A DNA stretch of 64,000 nucleotides from positions 29-64,028 of the IMG/VR virus record IMGVR_UViG_3300038701_003016; one strand, given 5' to 3'. Both the position numbers and the translations under genes were made by a program. Shown here one piece after another: positions 7,716 through 55,743 of this stretch. The stretch's first letter is position 1, and each line of letters opens with the position of its first letter. Under the pieces are notes generated by a model. It was given only the letters and a program-made list of their open reading frames with translations, ran no database searches and had not been told where the DNA came from. This DNA comes from a virus.

Positions 7716-7716
7716 A

Positions 7717-8262: not shown

Positions 8263-8265
8263 CTA

Positions 8266-8487
8266 ATGAAAATAAGTCGAGACATGGCAACAAAAGAGTA
8301 TACTCCTACGGCGGTAGTATTAGAGGATTATGATATTTTAAAAGGAACTTTGGTAGTTCAACTTAGAAGCTCTATAGCTATTAATAAAATAGCAATCGTA
8401 GATAATCCAGAAAATATAAAATATAAAGCCGGAGAAATAGTTAAGCTCAAGTTTAATAGCCTCGAAGATAGATGGGAACTTAGATGA
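8266..8487 (+). CDS. hypothetical protein
   Basis: ORF in operon. Confidence 0.55.
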   Translation: MKISRDMATKEYTPTAVVLEDYDILKGTLVVQLRSSIAINKIAIVDNPENIKYKAGEIVKLKFNSLEDRWELR

Positions 8488-8918: not shown

Positions 8919-8963
8919 GGGTATAACTGAAAATTATGATAGGTACTATATCTACATAAATAA

Positions 8964-9260
8964 TTGAGAGGGAAAATAATGTTGACTTTAAGTTTTTTTG
9001 AATTTTATTTGATTGCCGGGTTTATAACTTTTCATGGAGTTATGATGGCAAAACATATTAACACTGAAGATCCTGTCTATGACGTATGGAACATATTAAG
9101 TACAGCGGGTTTTGTTATATTTTTATGGCCTATATTCTTTGTGTATTTTCCGGCTGTATTTGCTGATTATGTAATTACAGAATTGAAATTTTATGCAAGG
9201 CGTAAAAAAGTCAATAAAGCCAACAAAGCGTTTAGGCGCTCAGAAAAATCAAATAAATAA
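8964..9260 (+). CDS. hypothetical membrane protein
   Basis: Two hydrophobic segments and a basic C-terminal tail. Confidence 0.6.
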   Translation: MRGKIMLTLSFFEFYLIAGFITFHGVMMAKHINTEDPVYDVWNILSTAGFVIFLWPIFFVYFPAVFADYVITELKFYARRKKVNKANKAFRRSEKSNK

Positions 9261-9280
9261 ATAAATAAATAAAGTTTTAT

Positions 9281-9355
9281 AGACCCGTAGCTCAAAGGTA
9301 GAGCTGGCTGCTCATAACGGTTAGGTTACAGGTTCGAGTCCTGTCGGGTCTACCA
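9281..9355 (+). tRNA. tRNA with CAT anticodon (probably Ile2, possibly elongator Met)
   Basis: AGACCCG/CGGGTCT acceptor, A73+CCA, GGTTCGAGTCC T-arm, loop CTCATAA. The A1-U72 pair excludes initiator. C4-G69 and C5-G68 match TilS determinants. Confidence 0.9.
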
Positions 9356-9356
9356 A

Positions 9357-9433
9357 GTGTCCTTAGCTCAATTGGATAGAGCCATGTACTTCTACTGCAT
9401 AGGTTGCAGGTTCGAGTCCTGCAGGGCGCACCA
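9357..9433 (+). tRNA. tRNA-Arg(TCT)
   Basis: GTGTCCT/AGGGCGC acceptor, anticodon arm ATGTA-CTTCTAC-TGCAT, GGTTCGAGTCC T-arm, encoded CCA. Confidence 0.92.
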
Positions 9434-9464
9434 ATTAAATTAAATTAAATAGAGAGGAAATATC

Positions 9465-9650
9465 ATGATTAGACGACGGAATAATAATGAAGAGTTAGTC
9501 CAAGGTTTGACTTTTGTACAGGGCCTATTCCTAGTATTCTTATTTCTAAAGCTTGATGGTTCAATTGATTGGTCTTGGCTTTGGGTAACTAGCCCTTTAT
9601 GGGTACATTTTGTATTTATGGCTTTAGCAAGCTGGGGTACAAATCATTAA
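9465..9650 (+). CDS. small membrane protein, transmembrane Fragile-X-F-like
   Basis: LFLKLDGSIDWSWLWVTSPLW motif. Confidence 0.7.
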   Translation: MIRRRNNNEELVQGLTFVQGLFLVFLFLKLDGSIDWSWLWVTSPLWVHFVFMALASWGTNH

Positions 9651-9701
9651 ATTCCCGTCTTATAATATAAATAACCTTGGGTCTATATTATAAGTTTTGG
9701 A

Positions 9702-9736
9702 GGGCGTTCCCTAGTCCGCCCGGGAAAGGCTAGGGG
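9702..9736 (+). promoter_or_regulatory. predicted H-type RNA pseudoknot in a 5' leader
   Basis: S1 GGGCG(9702-06)/CGCCC(9717-21); S2 CCCTAGTC(9709-16)/GGCTAGGG(9728-35). Confidence 0.5.
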
Positions 9737-9761
9737 CTAATTTAACATAGAGGATTTTAAA

Positions 9762-10061
9762 ATGAGTGAAGAATTAAGAGATAAACTTTGTAGAGACATT
9801 ACTGAAAGTGAATGTGCTTTAGCCACTGCTAATGAGCACTTAGCTCTTTTACAAGTTAAAGATGCTGTTTTAAATTATATGGGAGCGGTAGGGCATAGAA
9901 TAGAAATTAGCCCTCATAGCCAAACTCCTAATGAGTTTCCTAGTGAAAATACTGAGTTCTTTATGGAAGTAGTATCAAGAATTGATGAGGAATTAGACCT
10001 AATTAGATGCGAATATGGGTTAATAGATCTACAACCTTTTGACCCGGATAAGCTTGATTAA
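9762..10061 (+). CDS. hypothetical protein
   Basis: ORF with an AGAGGA RBS. Confidence 0.65.
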   Translation: MSEELRDKLCRDITESECALATANEHLALLQVKDAVLNYMGAVGHRIEISPHSQTPNEFPSENTEFFMEVVSRIDEELDLIRCEYGLIDLQPFDPDKLD

Positions 10062-10092
10062 AAAGGTAATTAAATAGTATTAAGGAGGTAAT

Positions 10093-10293
10093 ATGTGTTG
10101 GAGTTACATTGGACTGAGTTTACTCTATTTATTTATGGCTTTTATAGTTACTAGGGTTATAGAGGGCTCATGGGTTCGTAGAATAAGTGACAATGAAACT
10201 CTAAAAGCCCTAGGGGTTTTATTAGGTTTTTGGCTTTTCATCGGAAGTTTAATTATGCTTGTTTCCGGATTATTAAATAAATGTCCTGCATAA
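10093..10293 (+). CDS. small membrane protein
   Basis: Two hydrophobic helices and an AAGGAGG RBS. Confidence 0.65.
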   Translation: MCWSYIGLSLLYLFMAFIVTRVIEGSWVRRISDNETLKALGVLLGFWLFIGSLIMLVSGLLNKCPA

Positions 10294-10481
10294 ATTTAAA
10301 CAATATTGACGAATGCAAGGCCTGTCAAGGCAGAGCCTATTTACCTGTTTGCTGTAAAACAAGGGAATTAATTTATCCTGATGGATTTAATATTCCTTTA
10401 AGTATAGATGCATGCTGTGGAGATTGGGATTATGAGATGTGCCCTGAATGCAAGTCCGGATATGTCCTTAAGAAAGCCTAA
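10281..10481 (+). CDS. Cys-rich (Zn-binding) small protein
   Basis: CKAC, CC and CPEC motifs. Confidence 0.55.
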   Translation: MSCINLNNIDECKACQGRAYLPVCCKTRELIYPDGFNIPLSIDACCGDWDYEMCPECKSGYVLKKA

Positions 10482-10668
10482 AAGACTGCAATGCGAATTT
10501 GCAGTATTGGATATAAAGAATGGCAGAGTTATATTAGAAGAATATACTAATAACTCTCAGAATGAAGTAGAGGTCATTGTAACAGGGCGAATAACAGGGC
10601 CTCATAGCCGTGATGACGGAATAAGTACTGAATTTCTTCTAGATGTAGATAAAATACAGGTGGTATAG
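10462..10668 (+). CDS. hypothetical protein
   Basis: Track ORF 10408-10668 with a probable start at MSLRKP. Confidence 0.5.
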   Translation: MSLRKPKRLQCEFAVLDIKNGRVILEEYTNNSQNEVEVIVTGRITGPHSRDDGISTEFLLDVDKIQVV

Positions 10669-11162
10669 TGAAAGTACTTTTTCTTGATATAGATGGCCCG
10701 GTAGTTAATACTAGAAGTATATTAGCCAATCCTCAATGTGATTGTTGGTATGCTATAGATACTATAGGAGTGGCCTTATTAGTAAAGATAGCTAAAAAGT
10801 ACGATGTAAAAATAGTTTCAAATACCGCCCGGCATTCTTTAGATTTTGATGTTATGAAGTCAAAGCTTGAAATGCTCGGGCTTGTTTTTTATGGATCTAC
10901 TAATTTGCCAAAAACTCTACCTCGAAAACAAGCTATAGTAGAATGGCTTGAAGCTAATCCAGAAGTAGAACAGTGGGCGGCAGTAGATGATGAGTTTATA
11001 GATCATGAAAATGCAGTTCTTATAGACTATGATGAGGGTATAACCACAAAAGCTTTCCTCTCTATATTAAATATATTAGATTGTGAACAAGATGATGGAA
11101 TTATAATTTTAAAGGCTAATAGAGGGAAAGCTAATGACGAGAATAAACTGCGTTCATCCTAG
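10668..11162 (+). CDS. HAD phosphatase (HAD_SAK_2 / RNA-repair-type)
   Basis: KVLFLDIDGP motif I and WAAVDDE motif IV. Confidence 0.8.
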   Translation: MKVLFLDIDGPVVNTRSILANPQCDCWYAIDTIGVALLVKIAKKYDVKIVSNTARHSLDFDVMKSKLEMLGLVFYGSTNLPKTLPRKQAIVEWLEANPEVEQWAAVDDEFIDHENAVLIDYDEGITTKAFLSILNILDCEQDDGIIILKANRGKANDENKLRSS

Positions 11163-11550
11163 AGAGCTATGTGATAAGCATCTTTTAGCAGAATTAAATG
11201 AGTTACCACGGATTTTTACTAAAGCCGATATTTTCTGGAAAACCAGACAAGATGTGGGAAGTAAGCTTCCTACGGCATATTGTCTGGGAACTGGCCATAT
11301 GAAATTTTTCTATAATAAATTAAAGTATCTCCATTCCAGATATGGGCTACTCCACTTAGAAGCTACTCTTAGGGGTTTTAATGTAAAGTGGAGTAAAAAA
11401 GTATTTATTAGTCTAGAATATATTGATTTAAAAGTTGATAAATTTTGGCAGCCTAACTTAGAAGATATTAGGAAAAACAGAGAACGTATTGCTGAAAGAA
11501 TTTGGGATAGTATGAAAAGTAAACCCAAGTTTACCCCATATATTAATTAG
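11134..11550 (+). CDS. denV: pyrimidine dimer DNA glycosylase (T4 endonuclease V-like)
   Basis: MTRIN...LCDKHLLAELNELPRIF...LGTGHMKFFYNKLKYL. Confidence 0.9.
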   Translation: MTRINCVHPRELCDKHLLAELNELPRIFTKADIFWKTRQDVGSKLPTAYCLGTGHMKFFYNKLKYLHSRYGLLHLEATLRGFNVKWSKKVFISLEYIDLKVDKFWQPNLEDIRKNRERIAERIWDSMKSKPKFTPYIN

Positions 11551-11560
11551 GATACTTAAT

Positions 11561-12448
11561 ATGACTGATCTTAAAAAACCTATGCTGGCTGCCAAGTTTG
11601 ATCCTGACAAAGCTGTTTATCCTTTAATGGGAAGCATTAAAGTAGATGGAATAAGGTGTCTTATAAAAGATGGAGTAGCGGTAAGTCGGTCTTTAAAACC
11701 CATTCCTAATAAGTACGTTCAGAAATGGGCTGCTAGAAATGCAAGGCGTTTAGAAGGAGCAGATGGGGAACTAGTTGTAGGTAATTTAGAAGCTGAAGAC
11801 TGCTTTAGAAAAACCAGCTCTGCAATAATGTCTTTTGAGGGCAATCCTGATTTTAGCTATTGGGTATTTGATTTATGGAATAGGCCTGTTGCGCCTTTCT
11901 ATGCTCGATATGATGTATTTACTTTTGACCTTTGGGATGTAGACCGAGTATGTTTGCTAAATCAAGAAACTCTAAATACCCTTGAAGAGGTTTTAGATTT
12001 TTTAGATAAACAAACTAATAGAGGGTACGAAGGAATTATGCTTCGAGACCCTTACGGTCTTTATAAAATGGGACGCGCCACTGTAAATCAACGTCAACTT
12101 ATGAAATTGAAAAAATTTGAAGATGCTGAAGCGATTGTAATTGGTTTAGAAGAAGAAATGCATAATGCAAATGAGGCTCATACTAATGAAGTAGGGGCTA
12201 CAGAACGTTCACATCATAAAGAGAACATGATCGGCAAAAATACTTTGGGAGCTCTTAGAGTACAGCTTATAGACGGCTCAAAAACCGAATTTAAGGTAGG
12301 CACCGGCTTTTCGGCACAAGAACGTTTAGCGATATGGCGCTCTAAGCCGATCGGAGCTATAATTAAGTTTAAATACTTTCCTACAGGATCAAAAGATAAG
12401 CCCCGTTTTCCTGTATTTTTAGGTTTTAGAGATAGAATAGATATTTAG
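11561..12448 (+). CDS. ATP-dependent DNA ligase
   Basis: KVDGIR (motif I), DGEL, EGIMLR, KLK, and OB-fold VGTGFS...KYF...PRFP. Confidence 0.93.
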   Translation: MTDLKKPMLAAKFDPDKAVYPLMGSIKVDGIRCLIKDGVAVSRSLKPIPNKYVQKWAARNARRLEGADGELVVGNLEAEDCFRKTSSAIMSFEGNPDFSYWVFDLWNRPVAPFYARYDVFTFDLWDVDRVCLLNQETLNTLEEVLDFLDKQTNRGYEGIMLRDPYGLYKMGRATVNQRQLMKLKKFEDAEAIVIGLEEEMHNANEAHTNEVGATERSHHKENMIGKNTLGALRVQLIDGSKTEFKVGTGFSAQERLAIWRSKPIGAIIKFKYFPTGSKDKPRFPVFLGFRDRIDI

Positions 12449-12450
12449 CG

Positions 12451-12479
12451 TTTACATAACTAGGAAAATAGCGTATAAG
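12451..12479 (+). promoter_or_regulatory. sigma70-type promoter for the candidate ncRNA
   Basis: TTTACA-17 nt-TATAAG. Confidence 0.65.
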
Positions 12480-12485
12480 AAAAAG

Positions 12486-12777
12486 AACAATCGGAGTTGG
12501 CCTTTAGCAGGAGAGAGCACGCGTAGGCGTTAATGGTCTTTTAGTAGCGAGAAGCAGCTGTAGGCGGTGAGCTATTTCAGCCCCTACCTATTTAGAGTAG
12601 GGTAGCCAATAAAGAACATAGAGCGATGTCACGGAAGCAGTATAAAGCTATTAGCTTAAGGGATAGTACAATCTATCTAGCACCAATAATCAGTTAACTC
12701 TGTAGGGGCTTTTAGGAACTATATGTAGCTGCCAACGAGGCTCAAAACGAACTAAACAGTAAACGTGGATGATTGTT
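12486..12777 (+). ncRNA. candidate structured ncRNA, family unknown
   Basis: No long ORF. Nested long-range helices 12486-92/12771-77, 12496-501/12731-36, 12570-75/12725-30, 12579-87/12702-10. Confidence 0.5.
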
Positions 12778-12779
12778 TT

Positions 12780-12814
12780 AACGCGCTGGCTTGCATTATG
12801 CAGGTCAGCGCGTT
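12780..12814 (+). promoter_or_regulatory. 16-bp hairpin overlapping a possible terS promoter
   Basis: AACGCGCTG/CAGCGCGTT stem; TTGCAT-17-TATATA ends 6 nt before ATG 12826. Confidence 0.45.
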
Positions 12815-12825
12815 ATATATTTTTT

Positions 12826-13365
12826 ATGATTGAAAAAAGTTCAAAATATGAAACCGAGCGTAGAAAAGAGCTTGTAATTGAGGCGGCAAAAACAGCCCCC
12901 TCTTTTAGAAAGGCTTGTGACATAGCCGGAGTACCTTCTAGCACTGCTAATAGGTGGCGTAGGGATGATGAAGATTTTGCCGAGGCGCTACATGAAGCAG
13001 AAAAAGAACGGTGGGATGTTTTAAGAGAACATATCTATGAAAGAGCTATAGGCGGGTATGAAAAACCTGTGTATTATAAAGGCAGGCCTTTATGGAGACG
13101 AGACCCTAAAACTAATGAGCTTTTATTAGATGAAAATTTTGAGCCTATACCTCTAACAGAAACAGTCGTATCTGATAGGCTTCTTGAAAGGTATCTAGAA
13201 GCTAACTTGCCTGAGTTCGCTCGGAAATCGAGTTTGGAATTAAGTGGCCCTAATGGGGGTCCTGTTTCTACCCAATTAGTTGTAAATTTTGTTGATCCTC
13301 CTGATTGGGATAAAGTAAAATGGGATCCTGAAACAGGAAGAGCCGAATTACCAACAGATAAATAA
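12826..13365 (+). CDS. terS: terminase small subunit
   Basis: N-terminal HTH (ACDIAGVPSSTANRWRRDD), SDRLL and ELSGPNGGPV motifs, directly upstream of terL. Start refined from 12769. Confidence 0.8.
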   Translation: MIEKSSKYETERRKELVIEAAKTAPSFRKACDIAGVPSSTANRWRRDDEDFAEALHEAEKERWDVLREHIYERAIGGYEKPVYYKGRPLWRRDPKTNELLLDENFEPIPLTETVVSDRLLERYLEANLPEFARKSSLELSGPNGGPVSTQLVVNFVDPPDWDKVKWDPETGRAELPTDK

Positions 13366-43212: not shown

Positions 43213-44952
43213 TTAACCACATTCTTTAGAGCCATCAGGCCCTATTTCACACATAGCATTGTGGGCCTCCGGAGCCTTTTCATCTGGATCTTCTTTTCCT
43301 AAAAGAATGCCCATTCTTTTCCCGTCTTTATTGAAAGTGGTACACCCTTTACATCCTCGCTCCCAAGCTTGAATATAGATATTTTTAAAGGCTTCCCATG
43401 TCATAGAGCTATCTACGTTGCAAGTCTTAGATACAGCGCTGTCTACTAAAGCTGAAGCCGCTGCCAGAACATCAATATGTTGTTCGGCAGAAACCTTTGA
43501 GGATATAATTCCCTCTACTCCAAATTCTCTATAACCATAATCGGAAACATCTACGGTTACTTTTCCTTCAGGCATATTAACTACGCGCTTGCTTTCATAT
43601 TCAAATACGGGTTCAATTCCACTAGAAATATAATCTGCACAAAAACTTATAGTTCCAGTAGGCGCAATGCTAGTTAAATGTGAATTTCGTATCCCTTTTT
43701 CTTTAATTGCGTTTCTGATTTTTGGAGAAAGAGTTTTTGCAAAAGGTCCTGCTAGGAATAAATCCCTGTCGAATTTTGGAAAAGATCCTTTTTCTTCTGC
43801 TAAATCAGTACTAGCCAGATAGGCTTCGTCTCTAAGAGTTTCAAGAATTTCAAGTTGAAATTGCATAAAATCCGCTCCAGCATATGTATATCCTAAAGCT
43901 TCAGCAGCATTTGCAAGTCCGGTAATTCCTAGCCCCATACGCCTTTTTGATAAAGCTTCCATTCTTTGTTCTGGAAGGGGATATAAAGCTCTATCTACAA
44001 TATTATCCATAGCCCTTACAACATGAGGTATATCGGCTTCGAATAATTTCCAATCAAAAATATAGCCATTCCAACCTGATTTTTTCTCTTTTTTAATATA
44101 TTTTACTAGATTGAATGATCCTAAAAGACATGCTCCAAATGGAGGAAGAGGCTGTTCTCCACAAGGATTTGTGGCGGCTATTGTTTCGCAATACCAAAGG
44201 TTATTCATTTTATTTATAGTATCTATAAATAAAACGCCGGGTTCCCCCCAGTCCCAAGTAGATCTCATAATCATTTCCCATAAATAATTAGCATCTACTT
44301 CTTTATATACTCGACCTTGCCACCTTAATTGGAAAGGCTTATTGTCCTTTAGACAATTCATAAATTCATCAGTTACTGCTACTGAAATATTAAAACCTGT
44401 TAAACTTGTGGTATTTTGTTTTGCTAAAATAAATTCCTCAATATCAGGATGGTCTATTCGCATTACTCCCATTTGAGCACCTCGACGATGCCCTGAAGAA
44501 GCTATACATCTACATATGGCGTCAAAAATATCCATAAAACTTACGGGGCCGGAAGATCTAGATTGTAGTTTTTTAATTAATTCTCCTCTAGGTCTTAAGG
44601 TAGAAAAATCGTACCCAATACCTCCTCCCATTCTCATAGTCTGGGCAGCTTGTGAAGCTCTATCCATTATAGCCCCTGGGCCTTCCACAAAACTATCTTC
44701 TAAAGTACCAGAAACATAACAATTATAAGGAGTTACAGCTTTAGGGGCTCCCATTGCTGCTTGGACTCTTCCAGCTGCAATAAATCTCATATCTAAAGTG
44801 ATATCTCTAAAAGCTTTGAAATGCTCATCATCATCTTTAAGAGTGCTAGCAACTCTATTACAACTTTCTCTAAAAGTTTCATTTGGAAGACGGTATTTTT
44901 CAGCATGAAGTTTATCGCTGAAAACCAAGGAGGGTCCTGGTTCAGTGCTCAT
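43213..44952 (-). CDS. nrdJ: class II (B12-dependent) ribonucleotide reductase
   Basis: NCYV, TNPCGEQPL, APTGTIS, C-terminal Cys pair; no beta-subunit gene present. Confidence 0.88.
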   Translation of the reverse strand: MSTEPGPSLVFSDKLHAEKYRLPNETFRESCNRVASTLKDDDEHFKAFRDITLDMRFIAAGRVQAAMGAPKAVTPYNCYVSGTLEDSFVEGPGAIMDRASQAAQTMRMGGGIGYDFSTLRPRGELIKKLQSRSSGPVSFMDIFDAICRCIASSGHRRGAQMGVMRIDHPDIEEFILAKQNTTSLTGFNISVAVTDEFMNCLKDNKPFQLRWQGRVYKEVDANYLWEMIMRSTWDWGEPGVLFIDTINKMNNLWYCETIAATNPCGEQPLPPFGACLLGSFNLVKYIKKEKKSGWNGYIFDWKLFEADIPHVVRAMDNIVDRALYPLPEQRMEALSKRRMGLGITGLANAAEALGYTYAGADFMQFQLEILETLRDEAYLASTDLAEEKGSFPKFDRDLFLAGPFAKTLSPKIRNAIKEKGIRNSHLTSIAPTGTISFCADYISSGIEPVFEYESKRVVNMPEGKVTVDVSDYGYREFGVEGIISSKVSAEQHIDVLAAASALVDSAVSKTCNVDSSMTWEAFKNIYIQAWERGCKGCTTFNKDGKRMGILLGKEDPDEKAPEAHNAMCEIGPDGSKECG

Positions 44953-46222: not shown

Positions 46223-46693
46223 CTATAATAAAGAAGAATGTTTCGGTTGAGGATGCTTTACGATAGCTGCCAAAAATTCTATTTTAGAAGCTCCGGGGTT
46301 GACAATAGAAAGAGCCCCTAATTCTTCCAAAGTCAACCCATTTTGCATCTTATCTATTAAGTCTCTGCTTGCTGGTATTAAATATCTGTTAGCTTTTGAA
46401 TATTTTCCAATAAGAATAGCTACAAATACTCGTCCTCCGGCTCTGTATCTATTTTTCAACCAAATAGGCTGTCCATCTTGAAATTTTATTTTAATAGGAG
46501 TTTTTGCATTAGAAGGTTTATTGGCTTTTTTTAACTCAAGCCAAAATTCTATACCTTTAAAACAACCATTTACATCCGCCATTCCATTTCCTGCAGAATT
46601 TTCAATTCTATTTAAATGGAGTTGGTTTCTATAAACAAATTTTAATTTTTTGATCCATTTCCATAAATTTTCTTCGCCGGGAGTTATATTCAT
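46223..46693 (-). CDS. PD-(D/E)XK nuclease (VRR-NUC / resolvase-like)
   Basis: RIEN...GMADV...FWLELK...Q..W. Confidence 0.8.
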   Translation of the reverse strand: MNITPGEENLWKWIKKLKFVYRNQLHLNRIENSAGNGMADVNGCFKGIEFWLELKKANKPSNAKTPIKIKFQDGQPIWLKNRYRAGGRVFVAILIGKYSKANRYLIPASRDLIDKMQNGLTLEELGALSIVNPGASKIEFLAAIVKHPQPKHSSLL

Positions 46694-46708
46694 TTAGGTT
46701 CTCCTACA

Positions 46709-47152
46709 TTATACTATATTGGCAAAAATTATTTCTATTCCTGCTTGTCTAAAAGTTTCCTCAGATTTTAATTGATCTTCAGCCCAACTAGAAACAGGGT
46801 CTATTTTCCAGGATATAAGACGGGAAATACCCGCATTCAATATAGACCTACAGCATCCTTTTTTAGTACAAGGGAACATAGTTACATATAGAGAACATCC
46901 CTCTGTCTCAAACGTAGCATTCATTAAAGCGTTATGCTCTGCATGAACCATATTGTGATTTTTAACTTCTTTCATATTAAGCATCACTTGATCGTCAGGA
47001 ATATCTTTCGGAAATCCATTATAGCCTATAGATATATTACGTCTATCAGGGCTTACAAGTACGGCTCCGACTCGACAATTAGGATCTTTTGACCACCCTG
47101 AAACTTGAGTGGCTATGAGAAAAAATCTTCTATCCCATTTATTTTCTAACAT
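46709..47152 (-). CDS. dCMP deaminase
   Basis: SKDP..RVGAV, GYNGFP, HAEHNA, PCTKKGC. Start refined to MLENKW. Confidence 0.88.
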   Translation of the reverse strand: MLENKWDRRFFLIATQVSGWSKDPNCRVGAVLVSPDRRNISIGYNGFPKDIPDDQVMLNMKEVKNHNMVHAEHNALMNATFETEGCSLYVTMFPCTKKGCCRSILNAGISRLISWKIDPVSSWAEDQLKSEETFRQAGIEIIFANIV

Positions 47153-47154
47153 AT

Positions 47155-48129
47155 TTATTCCACCAAAACAGGTAAAGGAGACCAAGAATTTTTTGTTACT
47201 CTCTTGCTCAGCCGGTTAACAAGATTTATATACCCTTCAGGATTATTTTCTATTTCAGAGATGCTCATTCCAGGTAGAGAGGGCTCTATTTCAGTTAGTA
47301 CTGTAGGCCAATCTTTTTCTTCGTAAGGCCAATAAACTAAATCTGCAAGCTGTAAATGCTTAGGAATACTTAAATCAGATCCCGCACTAAATTGACTTTT
47401 CAGATATTTATAACGTTTATCTATATGATGGCTGCCCGGTATGCAAGCTTCTACCATAGCTAAATGCGGTTGATAAATATGGGCGTTAGCTAAAGTAAAT
47501 GATATAGTCCCAGGTACTAAATCTACTTCTGACGCTAAAGCATCTAAGGTAAGAGCATAAGCCATAATGTCATAAGGCAATCCTACAAATACGTCACTTG
47601 ATCTTATGAAAACTGACATATGCAATTCTCTATTATTACTTTGTTTATTGTCTAAGACATTTACACTAAAGCCTACTGGACATGGAATATTTTTAGGTTG
47701 AGAGCCTCCTAGACCATCTGAAGCAGGATCCCAAGTGCTTACATATAGTTGCCTATTAGAAGGATTTAATTTAAGTTCTTCACAAAGCTGGGCTAACTGG
47801 TCTCTGCCGAAATGTTTTCGCCAACGATAACCATAAGCAGTTTTCAACTCCCCGTCTTCTACAAATTTACTCCATAATTTAGGGGCATGTTTTAAAATAA
47901 ATTCAGGGTTTTTAGTGCCCATTATTTGCCAAGCTACCTCGGCGGCGGCCACTTTTGGGAAATAAGCTCTATTAGCTGCTAAAGGCAGTCTGCCATTTAA
48001 CTCTAATTTTATATTATAAGAGCCCCTATGGGTTAATACTTCCGTCTCAGTTCTGCTATTGAGCTGCTTTACTCCTTCTTTGTATATTGTAGTCAGCAGA
48101 GTTCTATATTGTTCATTGAGAGTTTCCAT
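47155..48129 (-). CDS. thymidylate synthase homologue with Asp at the N177-equivalent site (candidate dCMP methyl/hydroxymethyltransferase)
   Basis: AAEVAW, AYGYRWR, catalytic PC, RSSDVFVGLPYDIMAY, NAHIY. Confidence 0.85.
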   Translation of the reverse strand: METLNEQYRTLLTTIYKEGVKQLNSRTETEVLTHRGSYNIKLELNGRLPLAANRAYFPKVAAAEVAWQIMGTKNPEFILKHAPKLWSKFVEDGELKTAYGYRWRKHFGRDQLAQLCEELKLNPSNRQLYVSTWDPASDGLGGSQPKNIPCPVGFSVNVLDNKQSNNRELHMSVFIRSSDVFVGLPYDIMAYALTLDALASEVDLVPGTISFTLANAHIYQPHLAMVEACIPGSHHIDKRYKYLKSQFSAGSDLSIPKHLQLADLVYWPYEEKDWPTVLTEIEPSLPGMSISEIENNPEGYINLVNRLSKRVTKNSWSPLPVLVE

Positions 48130-48130
48130 G

Positions 48131-49015
48131 TTATACCTTCCAATATAAGTGGTTCATAATTCGCCCTAAATTTTGCACCGTGGTTGATATATCACTATTA
48201 TTATCTAAGTGATAATCAGCCATATGAGGAGTTACCGAGCAAGATCCTTGGTCCTCAGGGAGTATTACCTTCGATCTATCTACCCAAATTATAGCGTCGA
48301 ATACATTCTCTTTAATACATTGTACAAGTTCTGAAGAGTCCCGCATTCCACAGTAGATATCATTTTCTTTCAATATTTCTTTTGCTAATTTAGATTTAAT
48401 AGGAAAATTATATTCTTGAATGGCTTTGTACCATATTTGTCTATTGTTACCTGAATGCCTATCTTCAAAGCATTCCGCTGTGCTATTATATTTTCTGCCA
48501 AGTTTTTCAAAATAAGGCCTCATGATCCGTTCAGCACAAAAAGCACTAGAAGATGTGAATTTCAACCCATAAGAATTTTGTAATATATCACAAACAGTAT
48601 CTTTTCCATGTCTTCCATGCCCAATAACTAATATTTTTGGGCGCCTTTCAATAGCTTTCTTTATATCTGGAGCTTTCCATCCATAAGGCTTTATGGCATC
48701 ACAGCCTAGAGCTCCAGGGCGCTTACTTAATTCGCCTTTTTCTTTAAGCATATTTGCTTTATGAACTTCATTTAGGACTTGTTTACCATTAACCCCCATT
48801 TCATAAAAACGCCCGGCGGCAAAGTACATTAGATCCATTAAGGCATCTACTTCATCTTCTAAAGTTTCAGCGTCCTTAAACTCCTGTAATTCTTCGGCAA
48901 GAGCTGAACTCGTCCATATCTTTCTTTGCTCCGAAAGCCTCTCAGGCGATACAGGTTTTGGGATATCAACTATGTATTTTGCAAAGTCTGCAGTAAGCGT
49001 GAAAATATCATTCAT
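48131..49015 (-). CDS. MazG/PRA-PH-like NTP pyrophosphatase fused to a dNMP-kinase-like P-loop domain
   Basis: EELQEF...DALMDLMYF...EVHKANM followed by ILVIGHGRHGKDT. Confidence 0.8.
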   Translation of the reverse strand: MNDIFTLTADFAKYIVDIPKPVSPERLSEQRKIWTSSALAEELQEFKDAETLEDEVDALMDLMYFAAGRFYEMGVNGKQVLNEVHKANMLKEKGELSKRPGALGCDAIKPYGWKAPDIKKAIERRPKILVIGHGRHGKDTVCDILQNSYGLKFTSSSAFCAERIMRPYFEKLGRKYNSTAECFEDRHSGNNRQIWYKAIQEYNFPIKSKLAKEILKENDIYCGMRDSSELVQCIKENVFDAIIWVDRSKVILPEDQGSCSVTPHMADYHLDNNSDISTTVQNLGRIMNHLYWKV

Positions 49016-51067: not shown

Positions 51068-52581
51068 AATTTAACCTCTTGTAAAATCTTTTTCATTCCC
51101 TCTCTTGTTAATGAAGAAGCTATATCAATATTATTTTTTACACTATCTCTTATGTATTTATCAATTGGAGCCCCTATAAAGTCTATAACAGGAATATTTC
51201 CCCCTCCAATTGCAGTAGCTCTTTCATCTGCTTGACTTCGTTTAATTCCATCAAATACATGAGAGTACCAAATAATTTTACTGGCGGCAGACAAATCTAA
51301 TCCAGAAGTCGAATACCCTACTAGAGCTTTAATATTATTTTCAGCTCCAGGCTCAAAAGCTTTGCGGGCTTTAAGCTTATTAGCAGTAGATATTCGCCCA
51401 TGATACTCTACTATTTCATGCCCTCTATCTCTTAAAGTCTTAGCAATCAAGTCCATATCTTCATGAAAAGCCGCCCAAATAATACATTTTCCGCTAGCTC
51501 TTTCTACTTCTTCAATAAGAGCTTCTAATTTAGGGTTGGCTCCTGGAATTCTATACGTTTCGCCGAATTCATCTTTAATAAATCCAGAAGCAACCTGCTG
51601 TAACTTTATAAGTCTATTTGTATTTTCCCCAACCGATATTTCATTTTCGCCTATTTCAAGTTCATATTTAGTTCTTAAATCTGAATATACTTGAACTTGT
51701 TCATAAGTCATACCTACTTCTATAGTTTCAGGTACTATAGAAGGTAAATCAGTACAATCTTCTCTGAGAACTACAGAGCTATATTTAGCCATTTTTGATC
51801 TTAAACTATCTAGATTTATATATTCAGATAGCTGTTTATATTGATGCTTTTTAGCCCTTTTAAGAACATAAATAGCATGGTTAGCTTCAAATTCACTATA
51901 TTTTTCAAAGCCTAAAGCTCCTTTTTTTAAGAGCTCAAATTGGCCCCAAGCATGTAATGGTGAATTGTCTAAAGGAGTACCTGTAAGTATACGCCTATAA
52001 GAGCATTTGTTTGCAATCGCCCGTGCCATACTTGTACGTTTAGCAGAAGGCTTTCTAAAATCATGACTTTCATCAAATACTACCAATATTTTACCGTGTT
52101 TATTTCGTATAATTCTTTTTATTAATTTTCTTACATCATCCCTTACCATAGTTTCGCTGGCAAAGCTAAACCATGTAAGATTAGAACTTTTTATTAATTC
52201 TTTAGCTGTTTGCCACCATCTTAAATGGTCTTGTTTCCATTTAGCTTTATCCGCCGCTTTTACTTTTACAACGCCTTTTTCACTGGCTATATCAGTATTC
52301 CAAACTAAACATTGGTATTCTATGGAGTCCCAATGATGAATGTTTAATTCTCTTCTGACCCAATTATCATGAACCCCATTAGGAGCAAATATAAGTACGC
52401 AATCTATTTTGCCTTGGGAGTGTAAATTGCAGGCTGTATCTATTATAAGCTTAGTTTTACCTGTTCTCATTTGCCAAAATAAAGCGCGAGAAGGTAAATC
52501 TGCAGAATACTCAAACTCCTTAAATTGATGGTCGTAAGGAATTGTTTTAAAATCTGCGCTTATAAGAGCTTGAGTACTCAT
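51064..52581 (-). CDS. SNF2-like superfamily 2 helicase
   Basis: QMRTGKT, DESH, LTGTP, QADER. Confidence 0.9.
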   Translation of the reverse strand: MSTQALISADFKTIPYDHQFKEFEYSADLPSRALFWQMRTGKTKLIIDTACNLHSQGKIDCVLIFAPNGVHDNWVRRELNIHHWDSIEYQCLVWNTDIASEKGVVKVKAADKAKWKQDHLRWWQTAKELIKSSNLTWFSFASETMVRDDVRKLIKRIIRNKHGKILVVFDESHDFRKPSAKRTSMARAIANKCSYRRILTGTPLDNSPLHAWGQFELLKKGALGFEKYSEFEANHAIYVLKRAKKHQYKQLSEYINLDSLRSKMAKYSSVVLREDCTDLPSIVPETIEVGMTYEQVQVYSDLRTKYELEIGENEISVGENTNRLIKLQQVASGFIKDEFGETYRIPGANPKLEALIEEVERASGKCIIWAAFHEDMDLIAKTLRDRGHEIVEYHGRISTANKLKARKAFEPGAENNIKALVGYSTSGLDLSAASKIIWYSHVFDGIKRSQADERATAIGGGNIPVIDFIGAPIDKYIRDSVKNNIDIASSLTREGMKKILQEVKL

Positions 52582-53201
52582 GCTGGATACAAAAAGCCTT
52601 CTTCTTTTAATATTTTTTTAGTGTATTTTTTATGAAGAGATAGCCATTTCATTTTTATAAGGAATGGAAATCTGCCTCTAATAGGCATTAATTTTACCCC
52701 GAGAGCTTCTAACTTATCTATTCCCCATGTATTTCCTGAGGGCCTCATAATTTGAGCCCGTTCATCCTTTAGCACTCTAGTATCAATTTCTTTTATCCAG
52801 TTCGGATGGGGCCATATAGTCCCAAATTTTCTAGCAGAAGCTTCATGTAAAGTTTCTTCATATACACAAAACTCAGGCATAAGCCTTTTTAAAGGAGTTA
52901 CTTTATCCCCAATTAAATACTCTGAATTATCATGACATAAAGCGGTTAAGCATTCTCGGGCTGTTCCCCCATTTCTTTCAATATACTTAGCTAAAACAAT
53001 TGTATGCTCGCCTACAGAATAAAACCTTTTAGAATGCCCATTATATCTGCATATTAGAGACAAAGCATGAGCAACGTCTTCGACTTTTATTTTAGAAATA
53101 AGAGTTTGCATATTGGTTGTAAAATAAAAATCAGTTCCAGAATGTAATTCCATCCATACGTCTCTGTTTTCAAGCTCATTTGAACTAGTATTTTCTTTCA
53201 T
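52578..53201 (-). CDS. HD-domain deoxynucleotidase (YfbR/DatZ-like)
   Basis: AHALS.ICRYNGH...YSVGEH...HDNSEYLIGD..TPLK. Confidence 0.82.
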   Translation of the reverse strand: MKENTSSNELENRDVWMELHSGTDFYFTTNMQTLISKIKVEDVAHALSLICRYNGHSKRFYSVGEHTIVLAKYIERNGGTARECLTALCHDNSEYLIGDKVTPLKRLMPEFCVYEETLHEASARKFGTIWPHPNWIKEIDTRVLKDERAQIMRPSGNTWGIDKLEALGVKLMPIRGRFPFLIKMKWLSLHKKYTKKILKEEGFLYPA

Positions 53202-53382: not shown

Positions 53383-55743
53383 TTATTTCCTATATCTGCT
53401 GTACCTTTCAGCCTCTGCAGTAATAGGGCACCCTTCAGCCCATGGTTCAATTTCTGACATTAGCTCTTCAAATTCTTCCAAAGAGCCTTTATTCTTTGGC
53501 ACTTCCCCGACCATCTCATCATGGACTGTCATGAACACTCTATAAATAGTGTCTTTGCATCTTAACATTGCGTCAGCCATTATATCTCTAGCTACTGCTT
53601 GAGTTATATTCTCTACTAATTTTCCGCCATAGGATGCTGTACGAACCCATTTTCCTTTCGCCAAAGACATATATCTTATGCCATCTTTGACTTCTCCCCA
53701 ACTTGTCTTTGTAGGTTTTACAAGAGGGTCTCTGTAACGAACTAATCTACCTGAAGGTAGCTGACAGCACAAGAAACCTCCTTTTACAAACCATTTTATT
53801 TTACCTGATACATAGCAAGGACCCGTAAGTTTATCTCTTTGTTCTATATACTCTGGAGTTACTTCGGCGACAGCTCCTAAAGTTTGTTTGACTAAAGCTT
53901 CCCAGCCTTTAATAGCTGCTATCGCCGCTTCTTCTTGTTCCTTCCACATGGCTTTAACTTCAGGATACCTAGTTCTATAGACATCGACTGTATATTTCAT
54001 TAAAGCCAATTCGTGTATTATAGCTTTCGGATTTTCGTCAGCATCAATAAGTATACGTAAAACTCTCGACGCTTCTCTCTTTTTGAGAGGCTTAGCCTCT
54101 TTTCCAGGGAACAAATAGTCATTAACCCAATTATAATATTTTTCGTATTTATCTTGTAGGATTTTTGCTACTTGCTGTTTACTAAAAGAAATATCGTATT
54201 TACGGCATGTTAATAAGAAGGTTAAGAAACCCATTCCATAGCCTAAACCTAAAATGGCTTGTTTACCAAATTGCCTTTCTTCTGGATGGTCATGCCTATT
54301 TACTGGATATCCATAAATGCCCTCGGCCATATCACAGTAAATATCTCCTCCATTTCTGAAGGTTTCTAAGGCTTTTTCACAGCCAGCTTCCCACAACACA
54401 CATCTAGCTTCGATAGCAGAATAATCAGCTACTATAAGGTCATTGTCGATAGAAGGTATTATTAGGCCTCTTAAAGCACTAGAAAGGGCCTCCATAGTTC
54501 CTCCATCATAAAACGCTTCAAGCCAATCTGGATTTTGATCCAATATATCATTGGCAGCTACGTCCATATCAAATACTGATTTGTACTTTCCAGTTTTTTC
54601 ATCAAAATATGATACGTTTTTAGCTTTGCCTCTTGGAAAATTTTGTACTTGAATTCCTTTTCCAGACCATCTACCGGTGCCTGCTCCATGGTACATTAAT
54701 ATATCTCTAGCGCGGCCGTCTTCATGATCCGTTTTATCAAGAGCTGCCTGATATTTACGGGTAGAAGTTTTATTAACCAATTTTACAAGCTGAAGTACTC
54801 GGCGAGCTCTGCCTTCCACCTCTGGCATTTGTAAGAATTTATCTAAAGTAGCTGCTTGAGTATCTGGTAAATCCAAGTTTTCATTTTCTCTAAGCCAGTT
54901 TTTTACCTGTTCTCTTTTAGTAGCTGCAGAGATGCCTGTCATGTCTTCAAGCTCTGAATTCATTCGCTTCTTAGCTTCTTCGGCAATATACAATGCAGCT
55001 TTGGCTAGCTTAAGGTCAACTTGGGCTCCTGATATATTAATTTCTTGATCTAACTGCCACAATGAAAGCTCTCGGTCAGACAAGGCCGGAATAACGTCGC
55101 TTAAAGCTTCTTCAGCTCTTACATCTTGTTTACAATATTCCCATAACCTATAAATGTCTTCCTCTTCCTCATGCCATAAAGTAGGCATAGGAGTATCTCT
55201 TCCGTGTTTAGCTCTCCATTCTTGCCTTTCAGATTTACGAGGTTTTCTGGGTTTTGCCATTTTAAGCATAAGCCTTCGGCCTTCCATATCTTTTTCAATA
55301 GGAAGGCCCATAGCTTTACAGGCATTTTCAAGATCACGAGGGAGAGAGGCTGCACTAGCCCGAGAAGCAGAGCACCGCCACTGGTTTTCTGGAACCTCAG
55401 GCCACCCATATCTAGGCGTCATTATATGCCTCCAGATAACTCTTTCAAAGAAAGCATTGTGGGCTTCAACTAACCCTCCTTGCTCTATCCACTTAAAAAG
55501 CTCGTAGGGTATTTCGCTTTCAGCTATAAAAAATTGGTCGTGGCTTCTATGCCAAAGTTCTACTTTTCCTTCAGGCCAATAAGGTAACCTATAAGCTAAA
55601 CAAAATACGTCAGTTGTTGGATGCTTAGAATAAATCCATGAGCCAGTCTTCTTAATTTCGCATTCAGACTTGGTTTCAAAATCTATAGTAGCATGGAGAT
55701 TTAAATCAATATATGTTTCTATATTTAATACAGGTAGTCCCAT
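53383..55743 (-). CDS. family A DNA polymerase with 3'-5' exonuclease
   Basis: IDFET, DYSAIEAR (motif A), RQFGKQAILGLGYGMG (B), VHDE (C). Confidence 0.93.
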   Translation of the reverse strand: MGLPVLNIETYIDLNLHATIDFETKSECEIKKTGSWIYSKHPTTDVFCLAYRLPYWPEGKVELWHRSHDQFFIAESEIPYELFKWIEQGGLVEAHNAFFERVIWRHIMTPRYGWPEVPENQWRCSASRASAASLPRDLENACKAMGLPIEKDMEGRRLMLKMAKPRKPRKSERQEWRAKHGRDTPMPTLWHEEEEDIYRLWEYCKQDVRAEEALSDVIPALSDRELSLWQLDQEINISGAQVDLKLAKAALYIAEEAKKRMNSELEDMTGISAATKREQVKNWLRENENLDLPDTQAATLDKFLQMPEVEGRARRVLQLVKLVNKTSTRKYQAALDKTDHEDGRARDILMYHGAGTGRWSGKGIQVQNFPRGKAKNVSYFDEKTGKYKSVFDMDVAANDILDQNPDWLEAFYDGGTMEALSSALRGLIIPSIDNDLIVADYSAIEARCVLWEAGCEKALETFRNGGDIYCDMAEGIYGYPVNRHDHPEERQFGKQAILGLGYGMGFLTFLLTCRKYDISFSKQQVAKILQDKYEKYYNWVNDYLFPGKEAKPLKKREASRVLRILIDADENPKAIIHELALMKYTVDVYRTRYPEVKAMWKEQEEAAIAAIKGWEALVKQTLGAVAEVTPEYIEQRDKLTGPCYVSGKIKWFVKGGFLCCQLPSGRLVRYRDPLVKPTKTSWGEVKDGIRYMSLAKGKWVRTASYGGKLVENITQAVARDIMADAMLRCKDTIYRVFMTVHDEMVGEVPKNKGSLEEFEELMSEIEPWAEGCPITAEAERYSRYRK

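What the first reader, a model, noticed from the sequence alone, without database searches (positions are those of the whole stretch)
46709..49015. Thymidylate-synthase homologue with cytosine-type specificity residue in a T4-like modification toolkit
Seen: motif RSSDVFVGLPYDIMAY (GAC codon at 47569-47571, minus strand) aligns with E. coli ThyA RSCDVFLGLPFNIASY, so Asn177 is Asp. Established: Asn177Asp (L. casei Asn229Asp) shifts TS toward dCMP, T4 dCMP hydroxymethylase gp42 has Asp there, and Xanthomonas phage Xp12 makes 5mC DNA via a folate-dependent dCMP methyltransferase. Seen: the gene is flanked by dCMP deaminase and an NTP-pyrophosphatase-dNMP-kinase fusion, the same functional set as T4 cd/gp56/gp1. 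Inference: either the DNA carries 5mC or 5hmC, or the phage makes dTMP in reverse order (dCMP to 5m-dCMP, then deamination). No glycosyltransferase was recognised, which slightly favours plain 5mC.
Basis: partly seen in the sequence, partly recalled or inferred. Interest (0 to 1): 0.88.

Follow-up and report, generated by a model that had tools for sequence, protein, structure and literature searches.

The report
Xp12-type dCMP methylase module in phage
This marine phage's "thymidylate synthase" has the active site of the phage Xp12 enzyme that methylates dCMP, so its DNA probably carries 5-methylcytosine and its thymidine probably comes from deaminated methyl-cytosine nucleotides; this pathway is already known from the Xp12 phage group.

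Summary
The ThyA homologue (47155-48129, minus strand) has Asp, codon GAC at 47571-47569, exactly where E. coli ThyA has Asn177. All 119 retrieved homologues share it.

The nearest characterised enzyme is not T4 gp42. It is the dCMP methyltransferase of Xanthomonas phage Xp12 (45% identity), whose DNA has cytosine fully replaced by 5mC. The query matches Xp12 and PaMx74 at every diagnostic position:
- Asn three residues before the catalytic Cys (hydroxymethylases have Asp/Glu; T4 D145N is dead).
- Pro147, Asp169 and Asp177.
- A full ThyA-like C-terminal tail, which T4 gp42 lacks.

Gene order also matches Xp12: MazG-like pyrophosphatase, TS homologue, deaminase (41% identical), conserved nuclease-like gene. 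The genome has no second ThyA, no ThyX, no DHFR, and no DNA methyltransferase, TET/JBP or glycosyltransferase.

A 2024 preprint describes this exact module. It shows such TS homologues making 5m-dCMP and a linked deaminase converting 5m-dCTP to dTTP.

Verdict: a new member of a known kind. What is modestly new is its extension to RDJL-type roseophages, where these genes are annotated as ordinary dTMP genes, and a pyrophosphatase-kinase fusion. This scan has already noted the same enzyme type on other DNA (Patescibacteria). No chemistry was tested here.

The parts
47155..48129 (-). ThyA-family enzyme, predicted Xp12-type dCMP C5-methyltransferase (324 aa). Catalytic Cys150 is at codon 47682-47680, Asn147 (the E. 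coli L143 / T4 D145 position) at 47691-47689, Asp179 (= D169) at 47595-47593 and Asp187 (= N177) at 47571-47569. It keeps a ThyA-like C-terminal tail, and residues about 230-285 form a low-confidence insertion.
   Evidence: PF00303 at E 5.8e-43. Alignments. 44.8% identity to the Xp12 TS homologue. The AlphaFold model (pLDDT 87) superposes end to end on E. coli ThyA, model 5-324 on chain 1-264, Z 29, rmsd 2.1 A. It scores below all NCBIfam ThyA equivalog cut-offs.
46709..47185 (-). Zinc-dependent deoxycytidylate-type deaminase. The probable true start is the ATG at 47152 (147 aa). It has the HAE motif and a PC-x4-C variant of the PCxxC motif. Predicted to deaminate 5-methyl-dC nucleotides to thymidine nucleotides.
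   Evidence: PF00383 at E 3.8e-19 and phrog_174. 41% identical over its full length to the Xp12 deaminase, which sits in the same position. Junction sequence. The substrate preference is inferred from the literature and was not tested.
48131..49015 (-). Two-domain fusion (294 aa). Residues about 1-120 form a DR2231-type MazG-like NTP pyrophosphohydrolase. Residues about 125-294 form a P-loop (G-H-G-R-H-G-K-D-T) nucleotide-kinase domain distantly related to T4 gp1.
   Evidence: PF01503 at E 3.9e-12. The N-terminal domain is 51% identical to the Xp12 upstream protein. PDB DR2231 matches by sequence and by fold. The C-terminal domain folds like dephospho-CoA, adenylate and dNMP kinases (1DEK at rank 44). 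PF21448 is hit by 11 of 46 orthologues but not by the query. Model pLDDT is 93.8.
46223..46693 (-). Conserved 156-aa protein (phrog_2165) that follows the deaminase. It is syntenic with the gene closing the Xp12/ZQG1 block, which is annotated 'nuclease' in ZQG1.
   Evidence: 32% identity, E 7e-27, to Xp12 L002:6747-7193. No similarity to the Xp12 DHFR. ZQG1 annotation.
52578..53201 (-). HD-domain protein of the phage dNMP 5'-phosphatase family. It probably belongs to the nucleotide-pool toolkit.
   Evidence: phrog_318 at E 8.7e-42. Weak PF12917 YfbR-like match.
53383..55743 (-). Family A DNA polymerase, which would have to accept 5-methyl-dCTP.
   Evidence: PF00476 at E 6.4e-19. DNA_pol_A is one of the domains reported to co-localise with this module.
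43213..44952 (-). Ribonucleotide reductase large chain, which supplies the deoxynucleotides.
   Evidence: PF02867 at E 1.5e-104.

Best explanation
The three tightly packed genes at 46709-49015 are an Xp12-type cytosine-replacement and thymidine-supply module.

Step 1 (inferred): the MazG-like domain hydrolyses dCTP, and perhaps dUTP, to the monophosphate. This feeds the next enzyme and keeps plain C out of phage DNA.

Step 2 (best supported, by homology and active-site signature): the ThyA homologue uses methylene-tetrahydrofolate to methylate dCMP reductively, giving 5-methyl-dCMP and dihydrofolate. Asp187 selects cytosine. The non-acidic Asn147 and the ThyA-like C-terminal tail, which seals the site, favour hydride transfer over hydration.

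Step 3 (inferred): the fused P-loop domain phosphorylates 5-methyl-dCMP, and host kinases complete the route to 5-methyl-dCTP.

Step 4 (inferred): the family A polymerase builds DNA with 5mC in place of C.

Step 5 (inferred from Xp12 and mSCD-B5): the deaminase converts part of the 5-methyl-dC nucleotide pool to thymidine nucleotides, either at the triphosphate level as in mSCD-B5 or at the monophosphate level. This would explain why the phage has no dUMP-specific thymidylate synthase.

The 0.72 confidence is for the pathway as a whole. I put about 0.8 on the enzyme being a dCMP methyltransferase, and about 0.6 on virion DNA being largely or fully 5mC-substituted.
For: - Asp at N177 is confirmed and invariant in 119/119 homologues. 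All other catalytic residues are kept: R21, E58, W80, Y94, R126, C146, R166, S167, D169, H207, Y209.
- The nearest characterised relatives are the TS homologues of Xp12 (44.8% identity, E 1e-55) and PaMx74 (36%). Canonical td/ThyA are at 25-31%. In the tree the RDJL-like and Xp12/PaMx74 clades are neighbours, far from ThyA, gp42 and M6 gp58.
- The signature is identical to Xp12/PaMx74: Asn at Cys-3, Pro147, Asp169, Asp177, Phe83, and a C-terminal (W/Y)-x-P-x-P tail.
- The model superposes on ThyA through its last residue.
- Published data: the Xp12 enzyme and 5 of 7 deaminase-linked N177D homologues make 5mdC in vivo. The linked deaminase mSCD-B5 converts 5mdCTP to dTTP. PRA-PH, TS, deaminase and Pol A co-localise in contigs with modified cytosine.
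- Synteny with Xp12, PaMx74 and ZQG1, with 41% (deaminase), 51% (MazG domain) and 32% (downstream gene) identity.
- The genome has only one PF00303 match, no ThyX, and no C5 DNA methylase or TET/JBP. No glycosyltransferase appears in any scanned ORF.
- Related Xp12-group phages have restriction-resistant DNA.
Against: - No chemistry was done on this phage or on any RDJL-type relative. I found no restriction or LC-MS data for them.
- Two of the seven N177D homologues tested in the preprint did not give 5mdC, so the signature is not fully predictive.
- Reductive methylation produces dihydrofolate. The Xp12, PaMx74 and ZQG1 blocks include a DHFR, but this genome has none, so it must rely on the host enzyme.
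- The RDJL-like clade has Gln where Xp12 and ThyA have Arg127, a phosphate-binding residue from the partner subunit.
- The deaminase's preference for methylated substrates cannot be read from sequence; the trait is reported as polyphyletic.
- The MazG domain's closest solved relative, DR2231, was crystallised with dUMP and a dUTP analogue. Its dCTPase activity is assumed.
Confidence: 0.72

Rival explanations
1. Thymidine route only. The enzyme methylates dCMP and the deaminase then converts essentially all 5-methyl-dC nucleotide to thymidine nucleotide. 5mC would be a transient intermediate, and virion DNA would contain ordinary C, or only partial 5mC.
For: The genome is 63% A+T, so thymidine demand is about 1.7 times cytosine demand. 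There is no dUMP-type TS or ThyX. Earlier notes of this scan read the same module in Patescibacteria as a housekeeping thymidylate route (unchecked here). dCTPase activity of the MazG domain is unproven.
Against: The characterised phages with this module (Xp12, PaMx74) are reported to replace C entirely with 5mC, and relatives are restriction-resistant. A dedicated kinase domain fused to the pyrophosphatase makes most sense if the methylated nucleotide is carried on to the triphosphate for incorporation. The one characterised deaminase acts on the triphosphate, which is also the polymerase's substrate.
Confidence: 0.15
2. T4-like dCMP hydroxymethylase. The enzyme hydrates the exocyclic methylene intermediate, and the DNA carries 5hmC, undecorated or decorated by an unrecognised transferase.
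For: Asp at N177 is shared with T4 gp42. A Thr sits two residues before the catalytic-base Tyr, where gp42 has Ser94, which is Thr in some phages. The residue at Cys-3 is polar (Asn), not the bulky Leu of ThyA. There is no DHFR, and a hydroxymethylase would not need one.
Against: The published signature requires Asp/Glu at Cys-3, and T4 D145N makes no 5hm-dCMP. The query and all 119 homologues have Asn there, as do the 5mC makers Xp12 and PaMx74. gp42 lacks the C-terminal tail, whereas the query's tail superposes on that of ThyA. Identity to gp42 is about 23% against 45% to Xp12. No glycosyl-, carbamoyl- or other transferase was found.
Confidence: 0.06
3. Functionally ordinary or bifunctional thymidylate synthase. 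Despite the Asp, the enzyme still methylates dUMP made by a conventional dCMP deaminase, and the DNA is unmodified. This is how roseophage papers annotate these genes.
For: All catalytic residues for C1 transfer and hydride transfer are kept. The literature treats the gene pair in roseophages as dCMP to dUMP to dTMP auxiliary genes. From my own knowledge, unchecked here: engineered N177D/N229D enzymes retain some dUMP activity.
Against: Asn177 and His147, the two positions most strongly associated with unmodified versus modified DNA, are both changed (Asp, Pro) in 119/119 homologues. The protein scores below every NCBIfam ThyA equivalog cut-off. The closest tested relatives make 5mdC.
Confidence: 0.07

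Closest known systems
Deoxycytidylate C5-methyltransferase module of Xanthomonas phage Xp12 and relatives (Bosa, PaMx74, PaMx28, AXL1, DLP4, ZQG1; Bradleyvirinae/Pamexvirus)
   Same: The TS homologue is 36-45% identical and matches at every diagnostic residue: Asn at Cys-3, Pro147, Asp169, Asp177 and the C-terminal tail. The gene order is the same: MazG-like pyrophosphatase, TS, deaminase, nuclease-like gene, downstream of Pol A and a helicase. Genome size (55-65 kb siphophage) and replication module are similar: HAD, ligase, Prim-Pol, RNR, Cas4-like nuclease.
   Different: There is no DHFR between the deaminase and the nuclease-like gene. The MazG domain is fused to a P-loop kinase domain that Xp12's protein lacks. 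Arg127 is Gln. The TS has a 55-residue insertion before the tail. The RNR is a single large-chain gene, whereas AXL1 has class Ia. The host is a marine low-GC bacterium. No chemical data exist.
mSCD-B5 contig and the MetaGPA 'deaminase + N177D thymidylate synthase + PRA-PH' contigs (bioRxiv 10.1101/2024.12.05.627091; eLife 2021, PMC8670742)
   Same: The same three Pfam domains lie within 3 kb of each other, with Pol A nearby. The logic is the same: the TS homologue makes 5mdCMP and the deaminase makes thymidine nucleotide from the methylated cytosine nucleotide.
   Different: The specificity of this deaminase, and whether it acts on mono- or triphosphates, is unknown.
T4 dCMP hydroxymethylase gp42 with gp56 (dCTPase), gp1 (dNMP kinase) and cd (dCMP deaminase)
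   Same: The functional logic is the same: exclude dCTP, modify dCMP with a ThyA homologue carrying Asp at N177, phosphorylate with a phage kinase. The MazG-type pyrophosphatase and a gp1-like P-loop kinase are distant homologues or analogues.
   Different: The query has Asn rather than Asp at Cys-3 and retains the C-terminal tail. Identity to gp42 is about 23%. There are no glucosyltransferases and no separate td. BLAST against gp56 and gp1 is not significant.
Canonical thymidylate synthase ThyA/td (EC 2.1.1.45)
   Same: The whole fold is shared (Z 29, rmsd 2.1 A over about 255 residues, including the C-terminus), along with all catalytic and folate-site residues except the specificity positions.
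   Different: N177 is Asp, H147 is Pro, L143 is Asn and W83 is Phe. The protein scores below the NCBIfam equivalog thresholds.

Membership tests
Xp12-type dCMP C5-methyltransferase (ThyA superfamily) | ThyA fold with the catalytic Cys and the full C1-transfer residue set | tested here: met
   PF00303 at E 5.8e-43. R21, E58, W80, Y94, R126, C146, R166, S167, D169, H207 and Y209 are conserved. Z 29 against ThyA structures.
Xp12-type dCMP C5-methyltransferase (ThyA superfamily) | Asp at the E. coli Asn177 position (cytosine specificity) | tested here: met
   Invariant in 119/119 homologues.
Xp12-type dCMP C5-methyltransferase (ThyA superfamily) | A non-acidic residue three positions before the catalytic Cys, Asp169 retained, and a ThyA-like C-terminal tail (features favouring hydride transfer and a methyl product) | tested here: met
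   Asn at Cys-3, D169 and a (W/Y)-x-P-x-P tail, identical to Xp12 and PaMx74. The tail superposes on ThyA residue 264.
Xp12-type dCMP C5-methyltransferase (ThyA superfamily) | Closest characterised homologues are the Xp12/PaMx74 enzymes, with the module context (pyrophosphatase upstream, deaminase downstream) | tested here: met
Xp12-type dCMP C5-methyltransferase (ThyA superfamily) | The product is 5-methyl-dCMP, and virion DNA contains 5mC in place of C | not testable with these tools
   This needs enzyme assays or LC-MS of virion DNA. No such data were found for RDJL-type phages.
T4 gp42-type dCMP hydroxymethylase | [quoted passage not shown] | tested here: not met
   Asn in the query and in 119/119 homologues. 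T4 D145N is inactive.
T4 gp42-type dCMP hydroxymethylase | No C-terminal tail sealing the folate site | tested here: not met
   The query has the tail. gp42 ends about 40 residues earlier in the alignment.
Canonical thymidylate synthase (ThyA, dUMP to dTMP) | Asn177 and His147, and a score above the curated equivalog thresholds | tested here: not met
   Asp and Pro respectively. TIGR03284 scores 96.9 against a cut-off of 108.35, and NF002497 scores 114 against 327.
5-hydroxy-dCMP synthase (RB69 gp48 / DLP3 gp80 type) | Asn at the Asp169 position | tested here: not met
   Asp is retained.
MazG-like all-alpha NTP pyrophosphohydrolase (DR2231 type) | PRA-PH/MazG domain and a four-helix fold with conserved acidic residues | tested here: met
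   PF01503 at E 3.9e-12. DR2231 matches by sequence at E 2e-06 and by fold at TM 0.7 on the target. E41, E42, E45, D57 and D61 are invariant in 46 orthologues. Substrate specificity was not tested.
T4 gp1 deoxynucleotide monophosphate kinase (PF21448) | Significant match to the family model and a P-loop kinase fold | tested here: inconclusive
   The query's C-terminal half gives only AAA_18 at E 0.1. BLAST against gp1 is not significant, and hhalign gives 18% probability. However, 11 of 46 orthologues hit PF21448 (best E 8e-06), and the model matches P-loop small-molecule kinases, including 1DEK.
Zinc-dependent dCMP/cytidine deaminase (PF00383) | The H-A-E and P-C-x-x-C zinc and catalytic motifs | tested here: met
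   PF00383 at E 3.8e-19. HAE is present. The second motif is P-C-x4-C, with a two-residue insertion relative to Xp12 and Tedan. Selectivity for 5-methyl substrates is not testable here.

The most novel reading that the evidence does not exclude
The whole RDJL/Tedan-like clade of marine siphophages would have genomes with cytosine fully replaced by 5mC, and would make all their thymidine by deaminating methylated cytosine nucleotides. The clade includes cultured model roseophages and hundreds of metagenomic relatives, all with the invariant Asp177/Asn143/Pro147 signature. A clade-specific fused dCTP pyrophosphatase and 5-methyl-dCMP kinase would channel the pathway, without a phage DHFR. That would overturn the standing 'auxiliary dTMP-synthesis genes' annotation in marine virology. 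It would also add an abundant environmental reservoir of fully methylated DNA.
Probability: 0.5. Interest if true: 0.5.

Novelty: new member of a known kind. Interest (0 to 1): 0.35.

Why it matters
The pathway itself is already known from Xp12 and from recent MetaGPA work: dCMP to 5-methyl-dCMP, with 5mC going into DNA and thymidine made by deamination.

What this window adds is evidence that the same module, with an invariant signature, is present in RDJL-type roseophages and in at least 119 related marine protein clusters. In those phages the genes are routinely annotated as ordinary thymidylate synthase and dCMP deaminase, and interpreted as nucleotide-recycling auxiliary genes.

If these phages really carry 5mC DNA, several things are affected:
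- host-range and defence biology (restriction evasion, sensitivity to Mcr/Mrr-type systems);
- cloning and sequencing biases;
- interpretation of marine viromes.

The MazG-kinase fusion and the deaminase are also candidate reagents of the kind already being exploited for methylation sequencing. The cultured relatives (RDJL Phi 1/Phi 2, Tedan) make the prediction cheap to test.

Tried and rejected
- Nucleotide search of the three-gene block against phage records found nothing. Relatives are detectable only at the protein level.
- T4 comparisons: the fusion against gp56 gave only a marginal 23-residue match (E 0.014). Its C-terminal half against gp1 was not significant. Profile against gp1 gave 18% probability over 22 residues. 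'T4-like' therefore holds as functional analogy only.
- A search for a second thymidylate synthase (PF00303), ThyX (PF02511), DHFR (PF00186), C5 DNA methylase (PF00145) and TET/JBP (PF12851) in the whole 64-kb record found only the one ThyA homologue.
- Pfam scans of essentially all called ORFs found no glycosyltransferase or other DNA-modifying transferase.
- 5-hydroxycytosine synthase was considered and rejected, because Asp169 is retained.
- Literature on RDJL-type phage DNA modification: no paper holds both 'Xp12' and 'RDJL'. The original RDJL Phi 1 paper is not held. The genome paper does not mention these genes. The R5C paper has no restriction data.
- Sequencing runs: the stretch is held by one algae-metagenome run (the probable source) and partly by one seawater run.
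- No complex prediction was run, because no binding claim is made.
Full report
WHAT IS THERE

The window is almost the whole of a 64,159-bp virus record judged complete. It has 37% G+C. It was recovered from an algae-associated metagenome, and part of the stretch also occurs in a seawater run.

On the minus strand, three ORFs are packed with gaps of one and two bases:
- a 294-aa protein at 48131-49015;
- a 324-aa ThyA homologue at 47155-48129;
- a deaminase listed from a TTG at 47185, which more plausibly starts at the ATG at 47152, two bases after the TS stop codon.

Pfam assigns PRA-PH/MazG, Thymidylat_synt (model positions 1-221 of 266) and dCMP_cyt_deam_1 respectively. PHROGs agrees.

THE OBSERVATION

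HMMER alignments to solved ThyA chains and MAFFT alignments with E. coli ThyA from NC_000913 both place this Asp opposite Asn177. It is invariant in all 119 homologous clusters retrieved, as are Pro at position 147 and every catalytic residue: R21, E58, W80, Y94, R126, C146, R166, S167, D169, H207 and Y209.

WHICH KIND OF CYTOSINE-SPECIFIC ENZYME

The literature gives explicit discriminators.
- Positions 177 and 147 are the two positions most associated with modified versus unmodified phage DNA (PMC8670742).
- A bulky Leu at 143 goes with methyl products, and Asp/Glu with hydroxymethyl products. Asn at 169 marks the 5-hydroxy-dCMP synthases (PMC13326640).
- The T4 dCH ternary-complex paper defines the hydroxymethylase signature as Asp/Glu three residues before the catalytic Cys together with the absence of the C-terminal tail. 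It shows that D145N abolishes 5hm-dCMP formation (PMC6400193).

Counting back from the catalytic Cys gives this picture:

| Enzyme | Residue at Cys-3 |
|---|---|
| Query and 119/119 homologues | Asn |
| Xp12, PaMx74, ZQG1 | Asn |
| T4 gp42, M6 gp58 (dUMP hydroxymethylase) | Asp |
| ThyA, td | Leu |

Asp169 is retained. The C-terminus carries a (W/Y)-x-P-x-P-x-hydrophobic tail, which aligns with the ThyA tail and is shared with Xp12 and PaMx74.

An AlphaFold model (mean pLDDT 87.4) superposes on E. coli ThyA from model residue 5 to 324 against chain residues 1 to 264, with Z about 29 and rmsd 2.1 A. The tail is therefore in place. The extra length is a low-confidence insertion at about residues 230-285. 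No dCH or MilA entry appears among the best structural matches.

NCBIfam puts the protein below every ThyA equivalog threshold.

RELATIVES AND CONTEXT

Among cultured phages, the best matches are Ruegeria phage Tedan and the Roseobacter RDJL phages (48-52% identity). Next come only the Xp12/Bosa/PaMx74/PaMx28/AXL1/DLP4/ZQG1 group (35-45%). All 74 records at E <= 1e-25 are 55-65-kb siphophages. Canonical phage td enzymes are at 25-31%.

A maximum-likelihood tree places the RDJL-like clade (with the query) and the Xp12/PaMx74/ZQG1 clade as short-distance neighbours. ThyA/td, gp42 and M6 gp58 sit on long separate branches. Support for the two clades is moderate (86/95 and 89/86), and the deep nodes are unresolved.

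Gene order is shared. Xp12, PaMx74 and ZQG1 have pyrophosphohydrolase, TS, dCMP deaminase, DHFR and a nuclease-like gene, downstream of Pol I and a helicase. Compared with Xp12:
- the deaminase here is 41% identical;
- the MazG domain is 51% identical;
- the gene after the deaminase is 32% identical to the gene closing the Xp12 block.

The rest of the replication module also mirrors the Pamexvirus layout described for AXL1: HAD, ligase, Prim-Pol, RNR, Pol A, SNF2 helicase and a DUF2800/PD-(D/E)XK nuclease.

WHAT IS KNOWN ABOUT THAT MODULE

- Xp12 replaces all C by 5mC. Its TS homologue produced 5mdC in an in vivo assay, as did 5 of 7 deaminase-linked N177D homologues from metaviromes.
- 70% of deaminases in modified-cytosine contigs lie within 3 kb of a TS homologue, with PRA-PH and DNA_pol_A among the top co-localised domains.
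- One such deaminase, mSCD-B5, converts 5mdCTP to dTTP and barely touches dCTP.
- The authors propose that such phages make dTTP from 5mdCTP, and they cite older Xp12 labelling data (bioRxiv 10.1101/2024.12.05.627091).
- AXL1, DLP4, PaMx28 and PaMx74 DNA resists restriction enzymes whose sites contain G/C.

THE REST OF THE GENOME

There is one PF00303 match and no ThyX, DHFR, C5 DNA methylase or TET/JBP. Pfam scans of essentially all called ORFs found no glycosyl- or other transferase. This supports an undecorated modification and also leaves the phage without a dUMP-specific TS.

An HD-domain protein of the phage dNMP 5'-phosphatase family lies between the polymerase and the helicase. It probably also shapes the nucleotide pool.

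THE FUSION PROTEIN

The N-terminal 120 residues are a DR2231-type MazG-like pyrophosphohydrolase by sequence and by fold, with invariant acidic residues.

The C-terminal half has a G-x-G-R-H-G-K-D-T P-loop and folds as a P-loop small-molecule kinase. The nearest folds are dephospho-CoA kinase and adenylate-kinase-like proteins, with T4 dNMP kinase 1DEK at rank 44. The query does not reach PF21448, but 11 of 46 orthologues do. One orthologue carries a precomputed PF21448 hit and another is named a putative dNMP kinase by its source. The kinase call is reasonable. Membership in the gp1 family is inconclusive.

The fusion is specific to the RDJL-like clade, because Xp12's protein shares only the MazG half.

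MECHANISM AND CONFIDENCE

The best-supported step is dCMP to 5-methyl-dCMP, by homology to tested enzymes and by signature (about 0.8). The other steps are inferred from the known systems and were not tested:
- dCTP hydrolysis by the MazG domain;
- phosphorylation of 5-methyl-dCMP by the fused kinase;
- incorporation by Pol A;
- deamination of methylated cytosine nucleotides to thymidine nucleotides.

Points against:
- There are no chemical data for this clade.
- Two of the seven tested N177D enzymes gave no 5mdC.
- There is no DHFR, although reductive methylation consumes tetrahydrofolate reducing power.
- Arg127 is Gln in this clade.
- Deaminase selectivity cannot be read from sequence.

Rivals:
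- a thymidine route without stable 5mC in DNA (0.15);
- a hydroxymethylase (0.06);
- a functionally ordinary or bifunctional TS (0.07).

NOVELTY

This is a new member of a known kind. The roseophage literature annotates these genes as ordinary dTMP-synthesis auxiliary genes, and I found no paper connecting RDJL-type phages with Xp12. The extension to this abundant marine clade, and the pyrophosphatase-kinase fusion, are therefore modestly new and easily testable on cultured phages.

This scan has already recorded the same enzyme type many times on other DNA: 73 notes, mainly Patescibacteria, all compared with the Xp12 module. Those notes were not checked here.

Noticed in passing
window 52578-53201 (-): An HD-domain protein matches the phage 'deoxyribonucleoside 5' monophosphate phosphatase' family (phrog_318, E 8.7e-42) and lies between the Pol A and SNF2-helicase genes. 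Xp12 has no gene at this position. It may remove unwanted dNMPs from the pool.
   Followed up: partly
window 46223-47152 (-), compared with Xp12 L002:6274-6762, PaMx74 L010:4246-4713 and ZQG1 L011:3819-4274: The Xp12-group blocks carry a DHFR between the deaminase and the nuclease-like gene. This genome has no PF00186 match anywhere, and Tedan shows only one hypothetical gene of similar size after its deaminase. A reductive methylase without a phage DHFR must depend on the host enzyme.
   Followed up: partly
window 47155-48129 (-), residue 127 (E. coli numbering): Arg127, a phosphate-binding arginine donated by the partner subunit in ThyA, is Gln in the query and in all 119 RDJL-like homologues. 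Xp12 keeps Arg.
   Followed up: no
window 47272-47440 (-), TS residues about 230-285: A low-confidence insertion (pLDDT 50-65) lies between the catalytic core and the C-terminal tail. It is longer in this phage (324 aa in total) than in relatives (274-318 aa). Its role is unknown.
   Followed up: no
window 46709-47185 (-): The second zinc motif of the deaminase is P-C-x4-C, where Xp12 and Tedan have P-C-x2-C (a two-residue insertion). The listed TTG start overlaps the TS gene by 31 bases, but an ATG two bases after the TS stop fits the N-termini of the relatives better.
   Followed up: partly
whole window: G+C is 37%. AXL1, an Xp12-group relative, has 67.3% G+C by its own paper. This suggests a low-GC marine host. 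Full 5mC substitution would also favour C-to-T drift. Neither idea was tested.
   Followed up: no
window 13380-39702 (+) and the small ORFs at 1442-13365: Batch Pfam scans showed one YAcAr/SLOG-family protein, one DnaT_2-like protein, a GapR-like DNA-binding protein and a Pam3_gp32-like protein among the otherwise structural or unknown ORFs. The batch output does not say which ORF carries each.
   Followed up: no
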